A DNA stretch of 64,000 nucleotides. It comes from Escherichia phage A7_1. The notes beneath the pieces are model-generated. The model searched no databases, had not been told where the DNA came from, and saw only the letters and a list, made by a program, of their open reading frames with translations. The DNA is taken from the sequence record OP795442; one strand, given 5' to 3'. Below, in pieces: positions 27,129 to 51,425 of the stretch. Position 1 is the first letter of the stretch. Each line of letters starts with the position of its first letter. Position numbers and translations under genes: made by a program.

Positions 27129-28413
27129 TCTCCTTCAATTTGTCAAGATATTGTGTAACGTATCTTACTTTTACATTTCGGATTCTATTCTTGATCTCTT
27201 CTGGACGTCCAGCAAATCTTTCAGAGATCTCTTTACTTTCTTTTGAGATTGCAACGCTGTTTTGAACAATCCCCGCCAGTGCTGAGAATAATACCAAAGG
27301 TTGAGTGTAGCTGTCAAACATTTTTTCAGGACCCCGACCACGAGCATCACAGATGCAAGCATCAATAAATTCAGAGAGGAATGCTTGGTCCTTTTCACCA
27401 CGTAAGGCTACTAACAAGTCATAAACTTTCTTTGGCTTCATTTCTTTGATACGGTGAAGTCGTGTATGATGCTCAGTTACAGCTAAAGCCAACTTCTTCC
27501 AATTATTGGGGACACCAAAGCGATCACAAACTTGTTCAGTTAACTTGATACCATGTTCTTCGTGACCGTGCAGTTTACCCGTTACCCAATAAATACATTT
27601 ACCTAAGTCGTGACACAGAACTGCCCACTTCACAGCTTCACTTGCACGAGTCGCCTGGGCATAATCCATGCAAAGTAAAGTGTGAACAAATGCATCACCT
27701 TCAGGATGGTGCTCCTTGGGTTGAACAACATCGTATAAATCCACAAGCTCAGGAAATTCCCCCAGTTGAGTCAACATACGGATCATTACCGAAGGTTTAT
27801 TCATTTCTGACTGATCACTAAAGCATTTCTTAATCTCTGCAAATTTACGCTCTTTTGGTAATGCACTTAAATCAACATCCTTGCACATTCCCCAAGTGTC
27901 AGGATCAATTGTAAACTCGCCTCCGTATCTGGCATGTAATCTGGCTAATCGATATACACGTAAAGGGTCTTCGATAAATGCCTTAATAGATACACAACGT
28001 AACCGACGAAGTTCAATATCAAGTGCACCACCGCAAGGGTCAATAATTTCACCCGTAGAAATATCCTTAGCGATCGCATTAATGGTCAAATCTCTTCGCA
28101 TCAGGTCTTGTTCGATTGTAACGTCTGGAGAGAACACAACTTCGAAGTCGTGATAACCAGGACCTGTTGATCTTTCTGTCCGAGCAAGAGCATACTCTTC
28201 CTTTGTCTCGGGGTGAAGGTACACAGGGAAAGCTGCACCAACCTTAGTAAATCCCTTCTCAATCATTTCTTCATGGGTCGCTCCAACTACAACGTAGTCA
28301 CGATCCTTGCTTTCAACACTCATTAGTTCATCGCGAACTGCACCACCTACCAAGTAAACTTTCATTCCTTCTTCTTCCATTCTTTCCAATTCTGCATGCC
28401 CGCTCATAGCCAT
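27115..28413 (-). CDS. cca: tRNA nucleotidyltransferase (CCA-adding enzyme) with HD domain
   Basis: LVGGAVRDELM and DRD head motifs; HHPEGD and LCHDLGK HD-domain motifs. Confidence 0.8.
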   Translation of the reverse strand: MAMSGHAELERMEEEGMKVYLVGGAVRDELMSVESKDRDYVVVGATHEEMIEKGFTKVGAAFPVYLHPETKEEYALARTERSTGPGYHDFEVVFSPDVTIEQDLMRRDLTINAIAKDISTGEIIDPCGGALDIELRRLRCVSIKAFIEDPLRVYRLARLHARYGGEFTIDPDTWGMCKDVDLSALPKERKFAEIKKCFSDQSEMNKPSVMIRMLTQLGEFPELVDLYDVVQPKEHHPEGDAFVHTLLCMDYAQATRASEAVKWAVLCHDLGKCIYWVTGKLHGHEEHGIKLTEQVCDRFGVPNNWKKLALAVTEHHTRLHRIKEMKPKKVYDLLVALRGEKDQAFLSEFIDACICDARGRGPEKMFDSYTQPLVLFSALAGIVQNSVAISKESKEISERFAGRPEEIKNRIRNVKVRYVTQYLDKLKESENG

Positions 28414-28598
28414 CCCCTTTCTTTATACCCTTTTGTAAATCCTGATTCCCAATCTTGAAATTGCTCCGGCATGGTGTTTGGATTATACGGGTTGTTTCTC
28501 TTGAACATCCCAAACTTGAATCCAGCGGCTCGGCCCTTCTCGTATGCTGAACTGCTTTTTCTTGTCATACTCTTTCTCCTCTTAAATTTAAAGACCAA
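28404..28598 (-). CDS. hypothetical basic protein (64 aa)
   Basis: Track ORF; start uncertain. Confidence 0.3.
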   Translation of the reverse strand: MVFKFKRRKSMTRKSSSAYEKGRAAGFKFGMFKRNNPYNPNTMPEQFQDWESGFTKGYKERGWL

Positions 28599-41251: not shown

Positions 41252-41338
41252 AATTTTCTCCTCGACAACTCTTTAAAAGAGGGAGCTAATTGCTCCCATT
41301 CCTCGTATAATATAAAATTAACTAACCAATGTCAAACA

Positions 41339-42376
41339 TTATTTTGCAACATTTCCAGGAATTAGTTGTCGATGCTGGACAAAACCTTTCAAGTTACCAC
41401 TCCAGAAATTACCATCACGATCTACATGAGTAATTCCTTCTTCCCAACTGGTAGGGTCCCAAGCCACATTCACCATTGGAACATTAGGGATAAAATCTTC
41501 CTCTGTTTCAGCGATCTCTTTAGCTTGGTGTTCAAAAGGGGACGCGTGTACCTTTTTACCACCCACAAGTCGAGAATAAATATCTAAAGCTTTATCTTTT
41601 GTACTGTCAAGTCGGCGATAACTTACCTGACCGCAGCAAGAAGAGGAAATTCGTAAAGCCTCTTCTTCACTGAGCATAACAGGCTTGCCATCTTCATCCT
41701 CTACATAATAACCAAAGAATACGAAAAAGTCATCACCAAACAATCCAATATTTTCGTAAGCATGTTCAACATAGGGAGTATGCCAAACCCCAGGCTCCAA
41801 TTTTTCTGGATGAGAAGCATCATACGCTTCTTTCATTTTCTTTGCAAGCACTTCGATTGTTGGATCTGCATCTGCATCTACACGCAACCAGAAGAAATTT
41901 TCAAACTCGGTTGCTGTGACTACCGTCTTCATCATTTGGAAAGGTTCAATCAGGCGGTTGGCAATTTGCTTATGATACCCTGCCGTCTCAAATCGTTCAG
42001 CCCATTCAGATGCAGACTCTGCCGCTTTAACCCAAGCTTCTCGGCCTGTACAGAAAAGATTGTGAGCCAGACCATCTTCACCATCAACCCAATCATACCA
42101 AACTTTACCGTCGTGTTCCACACCATGATCTTGCATACCTGGTTTGTTAGCCCCAAATCGAACAGGCATTGCTGTGTTATTACGAACAAGCTCAATCATC
42201 TTCTTGATCGGAACTGCACGAGAAGACATTGCGTTTCGACTAAACAGTCGATGGGTCATCAACTCAGAATGAATAAAACGAGGATACGTCAATTCAAAAG
42301 TTGTGATTCGAGAATTTGTTACCGTACCAATAGAGTCTGCAATAATTTTAACTTCAATTTGATTCAGCTTGTCCAC
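41339..42376 (-). CDS. thyX: ThyX-like flavin-dependent thymidylate synthase (tentative)
   Basis: THRLFSRNAMSSR segment resembles the RHR-x7-S ThyX motif; 345 aa is long for ThyX. Confidence 0.45.
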   Translation of the reverse strand: MDKLNQIEVKIIADSIGTVTNSRITTFELTYPRFIHSELMTHRLFSRNAMSSRAVPIKKMIELVRNNTAMPVRFGANKPGMQDHGVEHDGKVWYDWVDGEDGLAHNLFCTGREAWVKAAESASEWAERFETAGYHKQIANRLIEPFQMMKTVVTATEFENFFWLRVDADADPTIEVLAKKMKEAYDASHPEKLEPGVWHTPYVEHAYENIGLFGDDFFVFFGYYVEDEDGKPVMLSEEEALRISSSCCGQVSYRRLDSTKDKALDIYSRLVGGKKVHASPFEHQAKEIAETEEDFIPNVPMVNVAWDPTSWEEGITHVDRDGNFWSGNLKGFVQHRQLIPGNVAK

Positions 42377-48551: not shown

Positions 48552-48730
48552 TTAATCCTCCTTAAGAAATTTTTGCAATACCTTGATAATTTTTTCGCAG
48601 CAATCTTTTTCACTAACAATGATCACTTCTGTTGAATCACCATCGTTTTGTAGGATGCTGACATACTTATGACCATTCGGACTTTTTCTTATTTCAATTC
48701 GAGTATCACCATAATCTTCATATTCAAACA

Positions 48731-49231
48731 TTAAAACGCCCCCCCATAATCTTCATCATCTTGTTTAGCCTCTGGACGCTTAAATTTAAAATCTTGACCC
48801 ATATATTCATACAGATAATCAATATTCAAAGACCATTCTTGCTTACTTCTTTGTCGCCACAATGCCGCAGCTTGCATAATGTATTCTTCAGCAGCCTTCT
48901 TGTCAACACCGTTAACTTTCATAAAGTGTCGTATTGCACGAGCCATGTTACCAGTTGCTTGAGCACGACCGATGTGTTTTACTTCATGGCAAGGAGGGCA
49001 TAAAGCAATCACTCCTCGTAACACAACTTCACCATCAACAAAGTCCCATATTTCATGAGCTTCCACAGCATGTTTACGACCATTACCTCCTTGGCCCCCA
49101 CATACTTCACAGTGATAGTTAGCCTCTTGATAGCATTTACGACGAACTTTGTCCCATCCCGCTTGGGTGAGATAAGACCGAAGGTTGTTGTCCCAAGCTG
49201 TGCTTGGGATTAATTCGATAGTTAATTTCAT
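48731..49231 (-). CDS. HNH-like zinc-binding nuclease candidate
   Basis: CEVCGG...HAVEAHE...CPPCHEVKH pattern. Confidence 0.4.
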   Translation of the reverse strand: MKLTIELIPSTAWDNNLRSYLTQAGWDKVRRKCYQEANYHCEVCGGQGGNGRKHAVEAHEIWDFVDGEVVLRGVIALCPPCHEVKHIGRAQATGNMARAIRHFMKVNGVDKKAAEEYIMQAAALWRQRSKQEWSLNIDYLYEYMGQDFKFKRPEAKQDDEDYGGAF

Positions 49232-49782
49232 TTAGTATGCCTCACATTTACCAATCATATTCATAGCTTCAGAAACATCGATAATCATATCGGTTGCTTC
49301 GTCCCAAGCTTTCCCCAAGAGATTCTCACCATACCAGAAACTTTCATCATCCACCATAGGGTGATTCTCATCCATACCGATCCCCCATACACGATCTCTC
49401 GGAGAGGCTTCTACAAACTTCAAACCCTTTTTACGGTAACCTACCGCAAGTTCACGGAGATTACCATTATCACACATACGACTATACACTAAACGGTTAC
49501 GATGTTAAATTTATTTTCATCCCAAACTGCCTGATCAAAATCCTTAACTTTACGACCTGGCCTTTTAGCACCTTGTGGAGTTACAGATTTAAGGATTCTT
49601 TCCGCTGAAGCTTTGTCACCGAAAAGCATAGCCTTTTCATACATCATGTAATGCTCACCAGTGTGGAAATAAATCCCCTTCATCTTCTGGTCGAAGTTTG
49701 AAAACGGAGAGATCTCCTGGTAATGATTACTAAAAACATCACGATAAGAATAAAAGAACACATGTTTATCAGTGACTCGCAT
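49232..49782 (-). pseudogene. NADAR-domain protein split into two overlapping frames
   Basis: N-part has FFYSYRDVFSNHY...SPFSNF...TGEHYMMYEKA; C-part (GTG 49489) has WGIG...ENLLGKAW; frames differ by 1 nt; RBS AGGAG before ATG 49782. Confidence 0.5.
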
Positions 49783-49918
49783 AAAAACTCCTATAGATCC
49801 AATGCAGATATTGAAATTAAGAATAGCACTACCGAAAGTAATCCATCCGGCGTACTGAAAAATCCAATCCAGCACGCTCTTGTGAACAGGTAGAATGCCA
49901 GTATTAAAACGATAACCC

Positions 49919-50155
49919 CTAAGAATGTTTCGATTTTTCTAACTCCCGAGCCATGATCTTAGTAATGTCAGCAAACGCAACATAAGCATGTTTGTAACAA
50001 CCAACGTCAACCTTAAGGGATTTGATCTCTTCTTCCAGCACATTTATTGCATGGAGTGTTTGACGAATAAGATCAACATCCTTAGTCGTTACATTAGGAG
50101 AATCCGTCATCAATTTTAGTCTTTCTTTAATCGTTTCGATATCTTGATTATACAT
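49919..50155 (-). CDS. hypothetical protein (78 aa)
   Basis: Track ORF. Confidence 0.4.
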   Translation of the reverse strand: MYNQDIETIKERLKLMTDSPNVTTKDVDLIRQTLHAINVLEEEIKSLKVDVGCYKHAYVAFADITKIMARELEKSKHS

Positions 50156-50480: not shown

Positions 50481-50729
50481 TTAATTTCCTCCTCGATCTG
50501 TGTAGTGCTGTATAATCTCATTTAAACACTTACTTGTCAACGAAAATTTCTTAGCTACGTAGCATTCGACAATATGCTCTTTCAAGTCTTTAGAGTCAGT
50601 GTATCCCATCTCTACAATGAAGTGACGAATCTTAGCCTTGTCCTTATCATTTAAAGAATTGAAATAATCACTTTTAGAATCAATTATTCTCATTTTCAAG
50701 TTTCCTGATCTGATAGTAAAGGGAGTCAA
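50481..50729 (-). CDS. hypothetical protein (82 aa)
   Basis: Track ORF. Confidence 0.4.
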   Translation of the reverse strand: MTPFTIRSGNLKMRIIDSKSDYFNSLNDKDKAKIRHFIVEMGYTDSKDLKEHIVECYVAKKFSLTSKCLNEIIQHYTDRGGN

Positions 50730-50961
50730 TGATCTCCTCGTTCATCTTAATATGCATGTCACGCAAGAAAGGTTTCAGCCCATCACGAATAATTGCTAAT
50801 CTGTCACCTTTGCACAAATTAACCAGATAAGGGTGATCCATAGCCTCCCAGGCAGGTTGATTGGTATAAGTGCCCCAGCCTTGATTCATCATCTGGTTAA
50901 GGTGCTCGATTTGTTTTATCTTAAGCTGCAAAGCTTCAATAGTAATCTGTTTAATATCCAT
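50680..50961 (-). CDS. hypothetical protein (93 aa)
   Basis: Track ORF; start uncertain. Confidence 0.4.
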   Translation of the reverse strand: MDIKQITIEALQLKIKQIEHLNQMMNQGWGTYTNQPAWEAMDHPYLVNLCKGDRLAIIRDGLKPFLRDMHIKMNEEIIDSLYYQIRKLENENN

Positions 50962-51425
50962 CAGTAAAGATCCTCGCTGTATAATTCTTTCTCACTTCCA
51001 CCACGTTCAATACGAACTTGTCCGGCATGGGTTGCAATGATCATTGCTTCTTCACGATTCCAATAATTACCGTATTGGTCGATAAACCCTTGATCATCCC
51101 CACAAACTTGCTGGGATACTAATTGCGGCCCCACCACATCAAGCACTTCTGCCATATCCTTAGAGTAATGACGAGAGCCAGGAATAATCAGAGTTCCACC
51201 ATCCTTTAATTTAAAACGATTAGCTGCACATACTATAGTACGCTGAACCTTTTGGTCATTATTCCAATAGCAAGTTTGCCAACAGATCTCAGGAATCTCG
51301 TCCATCATATCATCGAAAGAGTAATCAGCATTCCCATAGGACTGTAGTTTTTCAAACAAACTCTCTGGAGTTTCACGAGACAAAGCTTTATCTAATAATT
51401 CCAGACGTTCTTTAAAAGTTTTCAA
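50961..51425 (-). CDS. hypothetical protein (154 aa)
   Basis: Track ORF. Confidence 0.45.

What the first reader, a model, noticed from the sequence alone, without database searches (positions are those of the whole stretch)
49232..49782. NADAR-domain gene split across two frames
ORF 49489..49782 (after RBS AGGAG) contains FFYSYRDVFSNHY...SPFSNF...TGEHYMMYEKA and ORF 49232..49489 continues with ...WGIG...ENLLGKAWDEA. Together they look like one NADAR domain of about 180 aa whose halves are in frames 1 nt apart, overlapping at TAGTG. NADAR proteins are reported to reverse guanine ADP-ribosylation by DarT toxins, so an intact copy would be a candidate counter-defence gene. No obvious slippery heptamer is present, so pseudogenisation or a sequencing indel is more likely than programmed frameshifting.
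Basis: partly seen in the sequence, partly recalled or inferred. Interest (0 to 1): 0.65.

Follow-up and report, generated by a model that had tools for sequence, protein, structure and literature searches.

The report
Frameshifted phage NADAR (AdfN-like) gene
One missing C has split a phage gene for a NADAR enzyme, of the kind phages use to strip ADP-ribose from their DNA and escape the bacterial DarTG1 defence, so this phage (Escherichia phage A7-1) carries a broken copy of a known gene type, which is ordinary.

Summary
On the minus strand, ORF 49782..49489 (97 aa) and ORF 49489..49232 (85 aa) both match Pfam NADAR (E 1.6e-19 and 1e-10). Joined, they cover profile positions 10-158 of 163 (E 5.8e-34).

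**Cause:** the window reads ACCGT where four of five related phages read ACCCGT, so one C is missing at 49495-49496.

**Source:** the window is Escherichia phage A7-1 (OP795442), and its two halves are deposited as separate hypothetical proteins.

**Relatives:** all ten other members of the 90% protein cluster are intact (nine of 183-195 aa, one annotated from an upstream start at 214 aa). That rules out a conserved split gene or programmed frameshift.

**Effect:** the break falls inside a long helix and separates catalytic E43 and K50 from E125 and D130. The A7-1 copy also has a private L75P change at a nearly invariant Leu.

**Family:** the repaired protein is 38% identical to AdfN-Bas60, a validated anti-DarTG1 NADAR. 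RB69 already provides a published case of a 1-nt frameshift in adfN that makes the phage DarTG1-sensitive.

**Verdict:** an inactivated AdfN-like gene, probably a real mutation (about 0.7), possibly an assembly error (about 0.25). Low interest. Its use is as a natural knockout against phage A5-4.

The parts
49489..49782 (-). N-terminal fragment ORF of the NADAR gene. It encodes 97 aa: residues 1-96 of the intact protein, then a wrong Val, then TAG. It carries catalytic E43 and K50 and the private L75P change.
   Evidence: Pfam PF08719 E 1.6e-19, profile 10-94. ORF and sequence. E43 and K50 are invariant in 51 homologues.
49788..49792 (-). Shine-Dalgarno AGGAG, 5 nt upstream of ATG 49782. This is the real start of the gene. 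GenBank's GTG start at 49875 (128 aa) adds 31 residues that no homologue shares.
   Evidence: Sequence. All homologues begin MxVTDKHVFF. The 128-aa annotation appears.
49495..49496 (-). Site of the 1-nt deletion. The window has CC (ACCGT); A5-4, A73, W70 and LTH01 have CCC (ACCCGT), and UPEC06 has ACTCGT. The deletion shifts the frame by -1, creating TAG 49491-49489.
   Evidence: DNA alignment column 396. BLAST gap at window 49497.
49232..49489 (-). C-terminal fragment ORF. It is 85 aa from GTG 49489 (residues 99-183 of the intact protein), or 81 aa from ATG 49477 as deposited. It carries E125, D130 and the WGIG loop plus the C-terminal helix. Neither start has a recognisable ribosome-binding site.
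   Evidence: Pfam PF08719 E 1e-10, profile 116-158. Sequence. Deposited protein UZZ64144.1. E125 and D130 are invariant.

Best explanation
The region is one gene for a stand-alone NADAR enzyme of 183 aa. It belongs to the AdfN-like group found across Vequintavirinae and related large phages. In phage A7-1 it has been broken by loss of one C from a CCC run.

Translation from ATG 49782 now ends after 97 residues, in the middle of a long helix. The product has the E43 and K50 half of the active site. It lacks E125, D130, the WG loop and the C-terminal helices. The downstream 85-aa reading frame has no ribosome-binding site, so at most it is made in traces by reinitiation. The gene is therefore a loss-of-function allele.

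- **Shown here:** the deletion, its uniqueness to this record, family membership, and the position of the break in the fold.
- **Inferred (function):** the intact protein removes ADP-ribose from guanine in phage DNA and so protects against DarTG1-type defence.
- **Inferred (origin):** the deletion is a real mutation, tolerated because the isolation host E. coli MG1655 lacks DarTG1.
- **Prediction:** A7-1 is DarTG1-sensitive, and its close relative A5-4 is resistant.
For: - **Family:** both halves and the joined sequence match the NADAR profile.
- **Intact relatives:** five related phages have a single 552-nt gene with one more C at this point. The exact split products occur only in phage A7-1, while the ten other cluster members are intact.
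- **Fold:** an AlphaFold model of an intact orthologue (pLDDT 97.4) matches P. nicotianae NADAR 8bau (E 4e-10) and YbiA 2b3w. The break at residues 96/97 lies inside helix 84-105.
- **Active site:** E43, K50, E125 and D130 are invariant in 51 homologues and end up on different fragments.
- **Second lesion:** L75P is private to A7-1, at a site that is Leu in 46 of 51 homologues and never Pro.
- **Validated relative:** the repaired protein is 38% identical to AdfN-Bas60 (E 2e-30), which neutralises DarT1 (PMC11825919).
- **Precedent:** in RB69 adfN, a 1-nt insertion causes a frameshift, a non-functional AdfN and DarTG1 sensitivity. Loss of only 15 C-terminal residues already lowers AdfN-T4 activity.
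- **Sequencing:** the genome was Illumina MiSeq with metaSPAdes, where a 3-base run is not error-prone.
- **Genome-wide check:** this is the only uncompensated mid-gene 1-nt frameshift across the 64 kb compared with A5-4.
- **Host:** MG1655 serves as the DarTG1-free control host in PMC11825919.
Against: - No reads are available, so a consensus error cannot be excluded.
- The same record holds a perfect 55-bp duplication that looks like an assembly artefact. The record was therefore not fully curated.
- No independent assembly carries the deletion allele. An IMG/VR scan for either allele found nothing.
- Anti-DarTG1 activity of the Septuagintavirus protein is inferred from a 38%-identical homologue. 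The family also includes housekeeping YbiA-type enzymes, and in-cell rescue varies among NADAR subtypes (PMC11125620).
Confidence: 0.7

Rival explanations
1. The missing C is a sequencing or assembly error in the deposited A7-1 record. The real phage has an intact 183-aa NADAR gene.
For: - The deletion is seen in one record only.
- The record contains a perfect 55-bp tandem duplication at 13207-13317. Its length equals the largest default metaSPAdes k-mer, and it splits another gene that is intact in A5-4. That suggests limited post-assembly curation.
Against: - Illumina MiSeq data rarely give indels in a 3-base run (general knowledge).
- No other uncompensated mid-gene single-base frameshift exists in the 64 kb compared with A5-4.
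- The same allele carries L75P at a nearly invariant site, which fits a gene no longer under selection.
Confidence: 0.25
2. The two-frame layout is functional. Either a full-length NADAR is made by -1 ribosomal frameshifting or transcriptional slippage, or the two fragments are both made through TAGTG stop-start coupling and assemble into an active split enzyme.
For: - The stop and the GTG overlap (TAGTG), a geometry that can allow reinitiation.
- Only two residues (R97, L98) are missing between the fragments.
- A -1 shift right after ACC would restore the exact wild-type sequence (reading).
Against: - There is no slippery heptamer and no homopolymer long enough for slippage in the only permissive stretch, 49504-49489.
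- The arrangement is not conserved. The other ten members of the 90% protein cluster, five from deposited phage genomes and the rest from metagenome or SRA assemblies, are all single ORFs.
- The break is inside a helix, not at a domain boundary.
- No Shine-Dalgarno sequence precedes either candidate start of the second ORF.
- L75P may damage the N-terminal fragment in any case.
Confidence: 0.03

Closest known systems
AdfN-Bas60 (bas60_0111, Escherichia phage PaulScherrer, MZ501100)
   Same: - A stand-alone 183-aa phage NADAR with the same N-terminus (MR[VI]TDK.VFF).
- It shares E43, K50, the KRLGR motif and the FVEASP.D motif.
- It is 38% identical over 170 aa (E 2e-30).
- It has been shown to neutralise DarT1 and to rescue phages from DarTG1 (PMC11825919).
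   Different: - Bas60's gene is intact; the window copy is frameshifted and carries L75P.
- At only 38% identity, activity is inferred rather than shown.
- The genomic neighbourhood differs.
RB69 adfN (gene 30.3), a natural frameshift allele
   Same: A single-nucleotide indel in a phage NADAR counter-defence gene produces a frameshift and an early stop. The published consequence is a non-functional AdfN and DarTG1 sensitivity (PMC11825919).
   Different: - RB69 has a T insertion that removes only the last 15 residues. Here a C deletion cuts the protein in half.
- RB69's protein belongs to the T4-type NADAR branch, which has His at the E125 position. This protein has Glu there.
DarG1 / DarT1-associated NADAR antitoxins and PnNADAR (PDB 8bau)
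   Same: The fold is the same (Foldseek E 4e-10, TM 0.74), as is the catalytic Glu and Lys pair. These enzymes hydrolyse guanine-ADP-ribose (PMC11543638).
   Different: - No DarT toxin gene lies next to it, so it is an orphan phage gene.
- It has Glu (YbiA/Pn type) where DarT1-linked NADARs use Asp (D171 in E. coli C7).
E. coli YbiA (PDB 2b3w), an N-glycosidase acting on riboflavin intermediates
   Same: It belongs to the same Pfam family and has the same fold, with the conserved Glu at position 125. Some databases label relatives of this gene as 'swarming motility protein YbiA' or 'ribA/ribD-fused'.
   Different: - The sequence match is weak (E 6e-5).
- There is no riboflavin gene context.
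- Per PMC11825919, the AdfN-Bas60 group clusters with non-YbiA bacterial NADARs.

Membership tests
NADAR superfamily (Pfam PF08719) | Sequence match above the curated gathering score | tested here: met
   The scores are 71.2 bits (N half), 42.5 bits (C half) and 118.1 bits (joined), against a cutoff of 35.1 bits.
NADAR superfamily (Pfam PF08719) | NADAR fold | tested here: met
   This was tested on an intact orthologue (P0003) that is 95% identical. The model has pLDDT 97.4. The only significant PDB matches are 8bau (E 4e-10) and 2b3w (E 3e-6).
NADAR superfamily (Pfam PF08719) | Catalytic Glu and Lys (PnNADAR E43 and the Lys seven residues on) plus the second acidic residue (E125 position) | tested here: met
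   E43, K50, E125 and D130 are present in the window sequence and invariant in 51 homologues. Their roles are taken from PMC11543638.
NADAR superfamily (Pfam PF08719) | The whole domain on one polypeptide | tested here: not met
   A stop after residue 97 leaves E43 and K50 on one ORF and E125 and D130 on the other. The window copy is therefore a disrupted member.
AdfN (anti-DarT factor NADAR, phage counter-defence) | Orphan phage-encoded NADAR homologous to a validated AdfN | tested here: met
   It is 38% identical to AdfN-Bas60 (E 2e-30). The neighbourhood shows no toxin gene.
AdfN (anti-DarT factor NADAR, phage counter-defence) | Removes ADP-ribose from guanine in DNA and restores phage growth on DarTG1 hosts | not testable with these tools
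   This needs a biochemical assay and plaque assays.
AdfN (anti-DarT factor NADAR, phage counter-defence) | Full-length product including the C-terminal helix, which AdfN-T4 needs for full activity | tested here: not met
   The protein is truncated at residue 97 of 183. The requirement is described in PMC11825919.
Programmed -1 ribosomal frameshift | Slippery heptamer X XXY YYZ in the overlap of the two frames | tested here: not met
   The only permissive stretch is C ATC GTA ACC GTT TAG (49504-49489), which has no such motif.
Programmed -1 ribosomal frameshift | Two-frame arrangement conserved in relatives | tested here: not met
   All ten other cluster members and all five related phage genomes have a single ORF.
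YbiA-type riboflavin-pathway N-glycosidase | Riboflavin-gene or LexA-operon context, or fusion to ribA/ribD | tested here: not met
   The neighbours are Arn-like and unknown small proteins, an HNH endonuclease and an exonuclease.

The most novel reading that the evidence does not exclude
The two NADAR fragments are both translated, the second by reinitiation at the TAGTG overlap, and reassemble into an active two-piece ADP-ribosylglycohydrolase. Alternatively, the 97-aa N-terminal fragment has taken on a non-enzymatic role. Either would make A7-1 a natural example of a split counter-defence enzyme.
Probability: 0.03. Interest if true: 0.5.

Novelty: new member of a known kind. Interest (0 to 1): 0.2.

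Why it matters
The value is mainly practical.

- **Annotation:** A7-1's two 'hypothetical proteins' (UZZ64145.1 and UZZ64144.1) should be annotated as one disrupted NADAR/AdfN-like gene.
- **A natural test pair:** A7-1 and A5-4 are assigned to the same species in the paper that describes them (PMC11370258). If the deletion is real, they differ in a natural knockout of this gene. That allows a simple plaque-assay test of whether the Septuagintavirus/Vequintavirinae NADAR branch protects against DarTG1.
- **A second example:** after RB69, this is another case of adfN-type genes being lost by single-base indels in phages kept on defence-free laboratory hosts.

It does not reveal a new mechanism.

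Tried and rejected
- **Programmed frameshifting or slippage:** rejected. There is no slippery motif and no conservation of the split.
- **Two unrelated genes:** rejected, from the Pfam profile coordinates and the intact orthologues.
- **A genome riddled with homopolymer errors:** rejected. I listed every indel against A5-4 over 64 kb. All other non-multiple-of-3 indels are intergenic, compensated within a few codons, or at annotated start codons. The one exception is the 55-bp duplication.
- **IMG/VR scan:** a pattern matching both the deleted and the intact allele gave 0 hits. It provides no independent evidence either way.
- **Structure prediction on the close-relative alignment A2:** I repeated it with homologues.
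- **Pfam on eight neighbouring ORFs:** nothing found.
- **Promoter and terminator scan of 49150-50000:** not above chance, 2 found against 2.2 expected.
- **Supplementary tables of the AdfN paper:** not held. The Bas60 accession came from PMC11564622 instead.
- **Metagenome scan:** not run. No cluster member comes from JGI, so a hit was not expected.

Full report
**Observation**

The genes in this part of the window run on the minus strand. An ATG at 49782 sits 5 nt downstream of AGGAG (49792-49788). It opens a 97-codon ORF that ends at TAG 49491-49489. A second ORF starts at GTG 49489, sharing its G with the stop (TAGTG), and runs 85 codons to TAA 49234-49232. It lies in the -1 frame relative to the first ORF.

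Both ORFs match Pfam NADAR (PF08719) above the curated cutoff of 35.1 bits. The first scores E 1.6e-19 and covers profile positions 10-94. The second scores E 1e-10 and covers 116-158. Joined end to end, they give one continuous match to positions 10-158 of 163 (E 5.8e-34).

**Identity of the window**

An exact-sequence look-up finds the 128-aa version of the first ORF, annotated from an upstream GTG, as UZZ64145.1. It finds the 81-aa version of the second ORF, annotated from ATG 49477, as UZZ64144.1. Both are 'hypothetical proteins' of Escherichia phage A7_1.

That phage (OP795442, 144,828 bp) is one of four Septuagintavirus isolates in the subfamily Vequintavirinae. They came from Irish farm samples and were isolated on E. 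coli MG1655. They were sequenced on Illumina MiSeq and assembled with metaSPAdes (PMC11370258). The paper mentions neither the NADAR gene nor a frameshift.

**Cause of the split**

Megablast finds five related phage genomes: A5-4, A73, W70, vB_EcoM-LTH01 and UPEC06. They are 94.6-97.8% identical over this region. All five annotate a single CDS here, either 552 nt or 645 nt when called from the upstream start.

In the DNA alignment, the window lacks one base at column 396. It reads GTAA-CCGTTTAG, where four relatives read GTAACCCGTTTAG (or GTGACCCGTTTAG in LTH01) and UPEC06 reads GTCACTCGTTTAG. One C has therefore been lost from a CCC run, at window 49495-49496. The wild-type reading ...N I V T R L V Y S R M... 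becomes ...N I V T V stop.

The 90%-identity protein cluster has 12 members. The only truncated ones are the two A7-1 fragments. The other ten come from NCBI, ENA and Logan assemblies. Nine are 183-195 aa, and one is annotated from the upstream start at 214 aa.

**Recoding**

The -1 frame is closed by TAA 49507-49505. A ribosome could therefore change frame only within C ATC GTA ACC GTT TAG. That stretch has no X XXY YYZ heptamer and no run long enough for transcriptional slippage. The two-frame layout is also private to one record. Programmed frameshifting is effectively excluded.

Neither candidate start of the second ORF has a Shine-Dalgarno sequence. Reinitiation at TAGTG cannot be ruled out, but it would be weak.

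**What the break does to the protein**

I collected 95 homologues and aligned 51 of them. An intact orthologue (P0003) that is 95% identical to the repaired A7-1 protein gave a very confident model (pLDDT 97.4, pTM 0.91). Its only significant PDB matches are Phytophthora NADAR 8bau (E 4e-10, TM 0.74) and E. coli YbiA 2b3w.

Residues 96/97 lie in the middle of helix 84-105. E43, K50, G76, R77, W87, E125 and D130 are invariant across the 51 sequences.

- In PnNADAR, E43 and E125 contact the ADP-ribose. The equivalent Glu, Lys and acidic residues are needed for guanine-ADPr hydrolysis and for rescue from DarT1 (PMC11543638).
- In AdfN-T4, the corresponding E36 and K43 are needed for full activity (PMC11825919).
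- The frameshift leaves E43 and K50 on the 97-aa fragment. E125, D130, the WGIG loop and the C-terminal helix 155-182 end up on the other fragment.
- Removing only 15 C-terminal residues already lowers AdfN-T4 activity.

The A7-1 allele also carries two private substitutions at sites invariant among its ten close relatives: L75P and I132V. Position 75 is Leu in 46 of 51 diverse homologues and is never Pro. It sits in the AKxLGR helix.

**What the intact gene probably does**

Phage NADARs are now an established counter-defence class. AdfN-T4, AdfN-Bas32 and AdfN-Bas60 remove ADP-ribose from guanine in DNA and overcome DarTG1. They do not overcome DarTG2 (PMC11825919).

Bas60 is Escherichia phage PaulScherrer (MZ501100). 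Its NADAR is bas60_0111, also 183 aa. The repaired A7-1 protein is 38% identical to it over 170 residues (E 2e-30). It shares the N-terminus, the catalytic residues and the FVEASP.D motif.

A tblastn search finds the family in 717 phage records. Identity is 48-54% in Certrevirus-like Pectobacterium phages and in large Enterobacter, Klebsiella and Salmonella phages. It is about 35-40% in rV5-, phi92- and phAPEC8-like coliphages and in large Staphylococcus, Listeria and Bacillus phages.

All four E. coli-associated NADAR subtypes tested so far hydrolyse guanine-ADPr in vitro, although in-cell rescue varies (PMC11125620). Anti-DarTG1 activity for the Septuagintavirus protein is therefore a reasonable inference, not a demonstrated fact.

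The neighbours are Arn-like 'anti-restriction nuclease' family proteins, small proteins of unknown function, an HNH endonuclease and an exonuclease. There is no toxin gene and no riboflavin gene.

**Real mutation or record error**

For a real mutation:
- The data are Illumina, and the run is only three bases long.
- I listed every indel between the window and A5-4 and tested every A5-4 ORF of 70 aa or more against the window. This is the only uncompensated mid-gene single-base frameshift in 64 kb.
- The remaining odd-length indels are intergenic, are compensated within a few codons in divergent alleles, or sit at annotated start codons.
- L75P fits a gene that is no longer under selection.
- MG1655 has no DarTG1. 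It is the defence-free control host in PMC11825919. Loss of the gene would therefore cost nothing during isolation and propagation.
- RB69 is a published precedent for exactly this kind of event.

For an error:
- Only one record shows the deletion.
- The same record contains a perfect 55-bp tandem duplication at 13207-13317, where A5-4 has one copy. It splits another gene. Its length equals the largest default metaSPAdes k-mer, which looks like an untrimmed contig overlap.

I put a real mutation at about 0.7 and an error at about 0.25.

**Comparison and verdict**

The window copy is a disrupted member of the NADAR superfamily, on the AdfN-Bas60-like branch. It is a pseudogene-like allele of a known phage counter-defence gene type, produced by a known kind of lesion. 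It is neither a new mechanism nor a recoding site.

Its value is in annotation and as a natural knockout. A7-1 and A5-4 are assigned to the same species. They should differ in DarTG1 sensitivity if both the inference about function and the deletion are real.

Noticed in passing
window 13207-13317: There is a perfect two-copy tandem duplication of a 55-bp unit; phage A5-4 has a single identical copy. It splits the homologue of A5-4_119 (380 aa, minus strand) into two frames. Its length equals the largest default metaSPAdes k-mer, so it is probably an untrimmed circular-contig overlap left in the deposited record rather than biology.
   Followed up: partly
window 48552-49231: An HNH homing-endonuclease gene (48731-49231, PHROG 5200, E 2.6e-70) starts at the NADAR stop (TAAATG). 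The slot downstream of it varies between relatives. The window has a 59-aa ORF there, and A5-4 has a 495-nt CDS. LTH01 and UPEC06 have nothing, and A73 and W70 have a different gene plus another homing endonuclease.
   Followed up: partly
window 50503-51424: Three small genes include one in the 'anti-restriction nuclease' (Arn-like) PHROG 4452. They are about 78% identical at the DNA level to T4-like coliphages (AV109, OLB35 and others). The rest of the region matches only Septuagintavirus, which suggests exchange of an anti-defence cassette between Tevenvirinae and this Vequintavirinae genus.
   Followed up: partly
window 49783-49875: The deposited annotation starts the first NADAR fragment at GTG 49875 (128 aa), and A5-4, A73 and W70 are annotated likewise at 214 aa. 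Yet homologues begin MxVTDK at the ATG preceded by AGGAG. The 31-residue extension is probably not translated.
   Followed up: yes
window 41260-42330: The thymidylate synthase gene is far more divergent from the A5-4 allele than its surroundings. It has several compensated indel pairs, which looks like allelic replacement or mosaicism.
   Followed up: no
window 28375-28565: About 190 nt lie between the CCA-adding enzyme gene homologue and the next gene, and they do not align to A5-4. There the two flanking alignments overlap instead.
   Followed up: no
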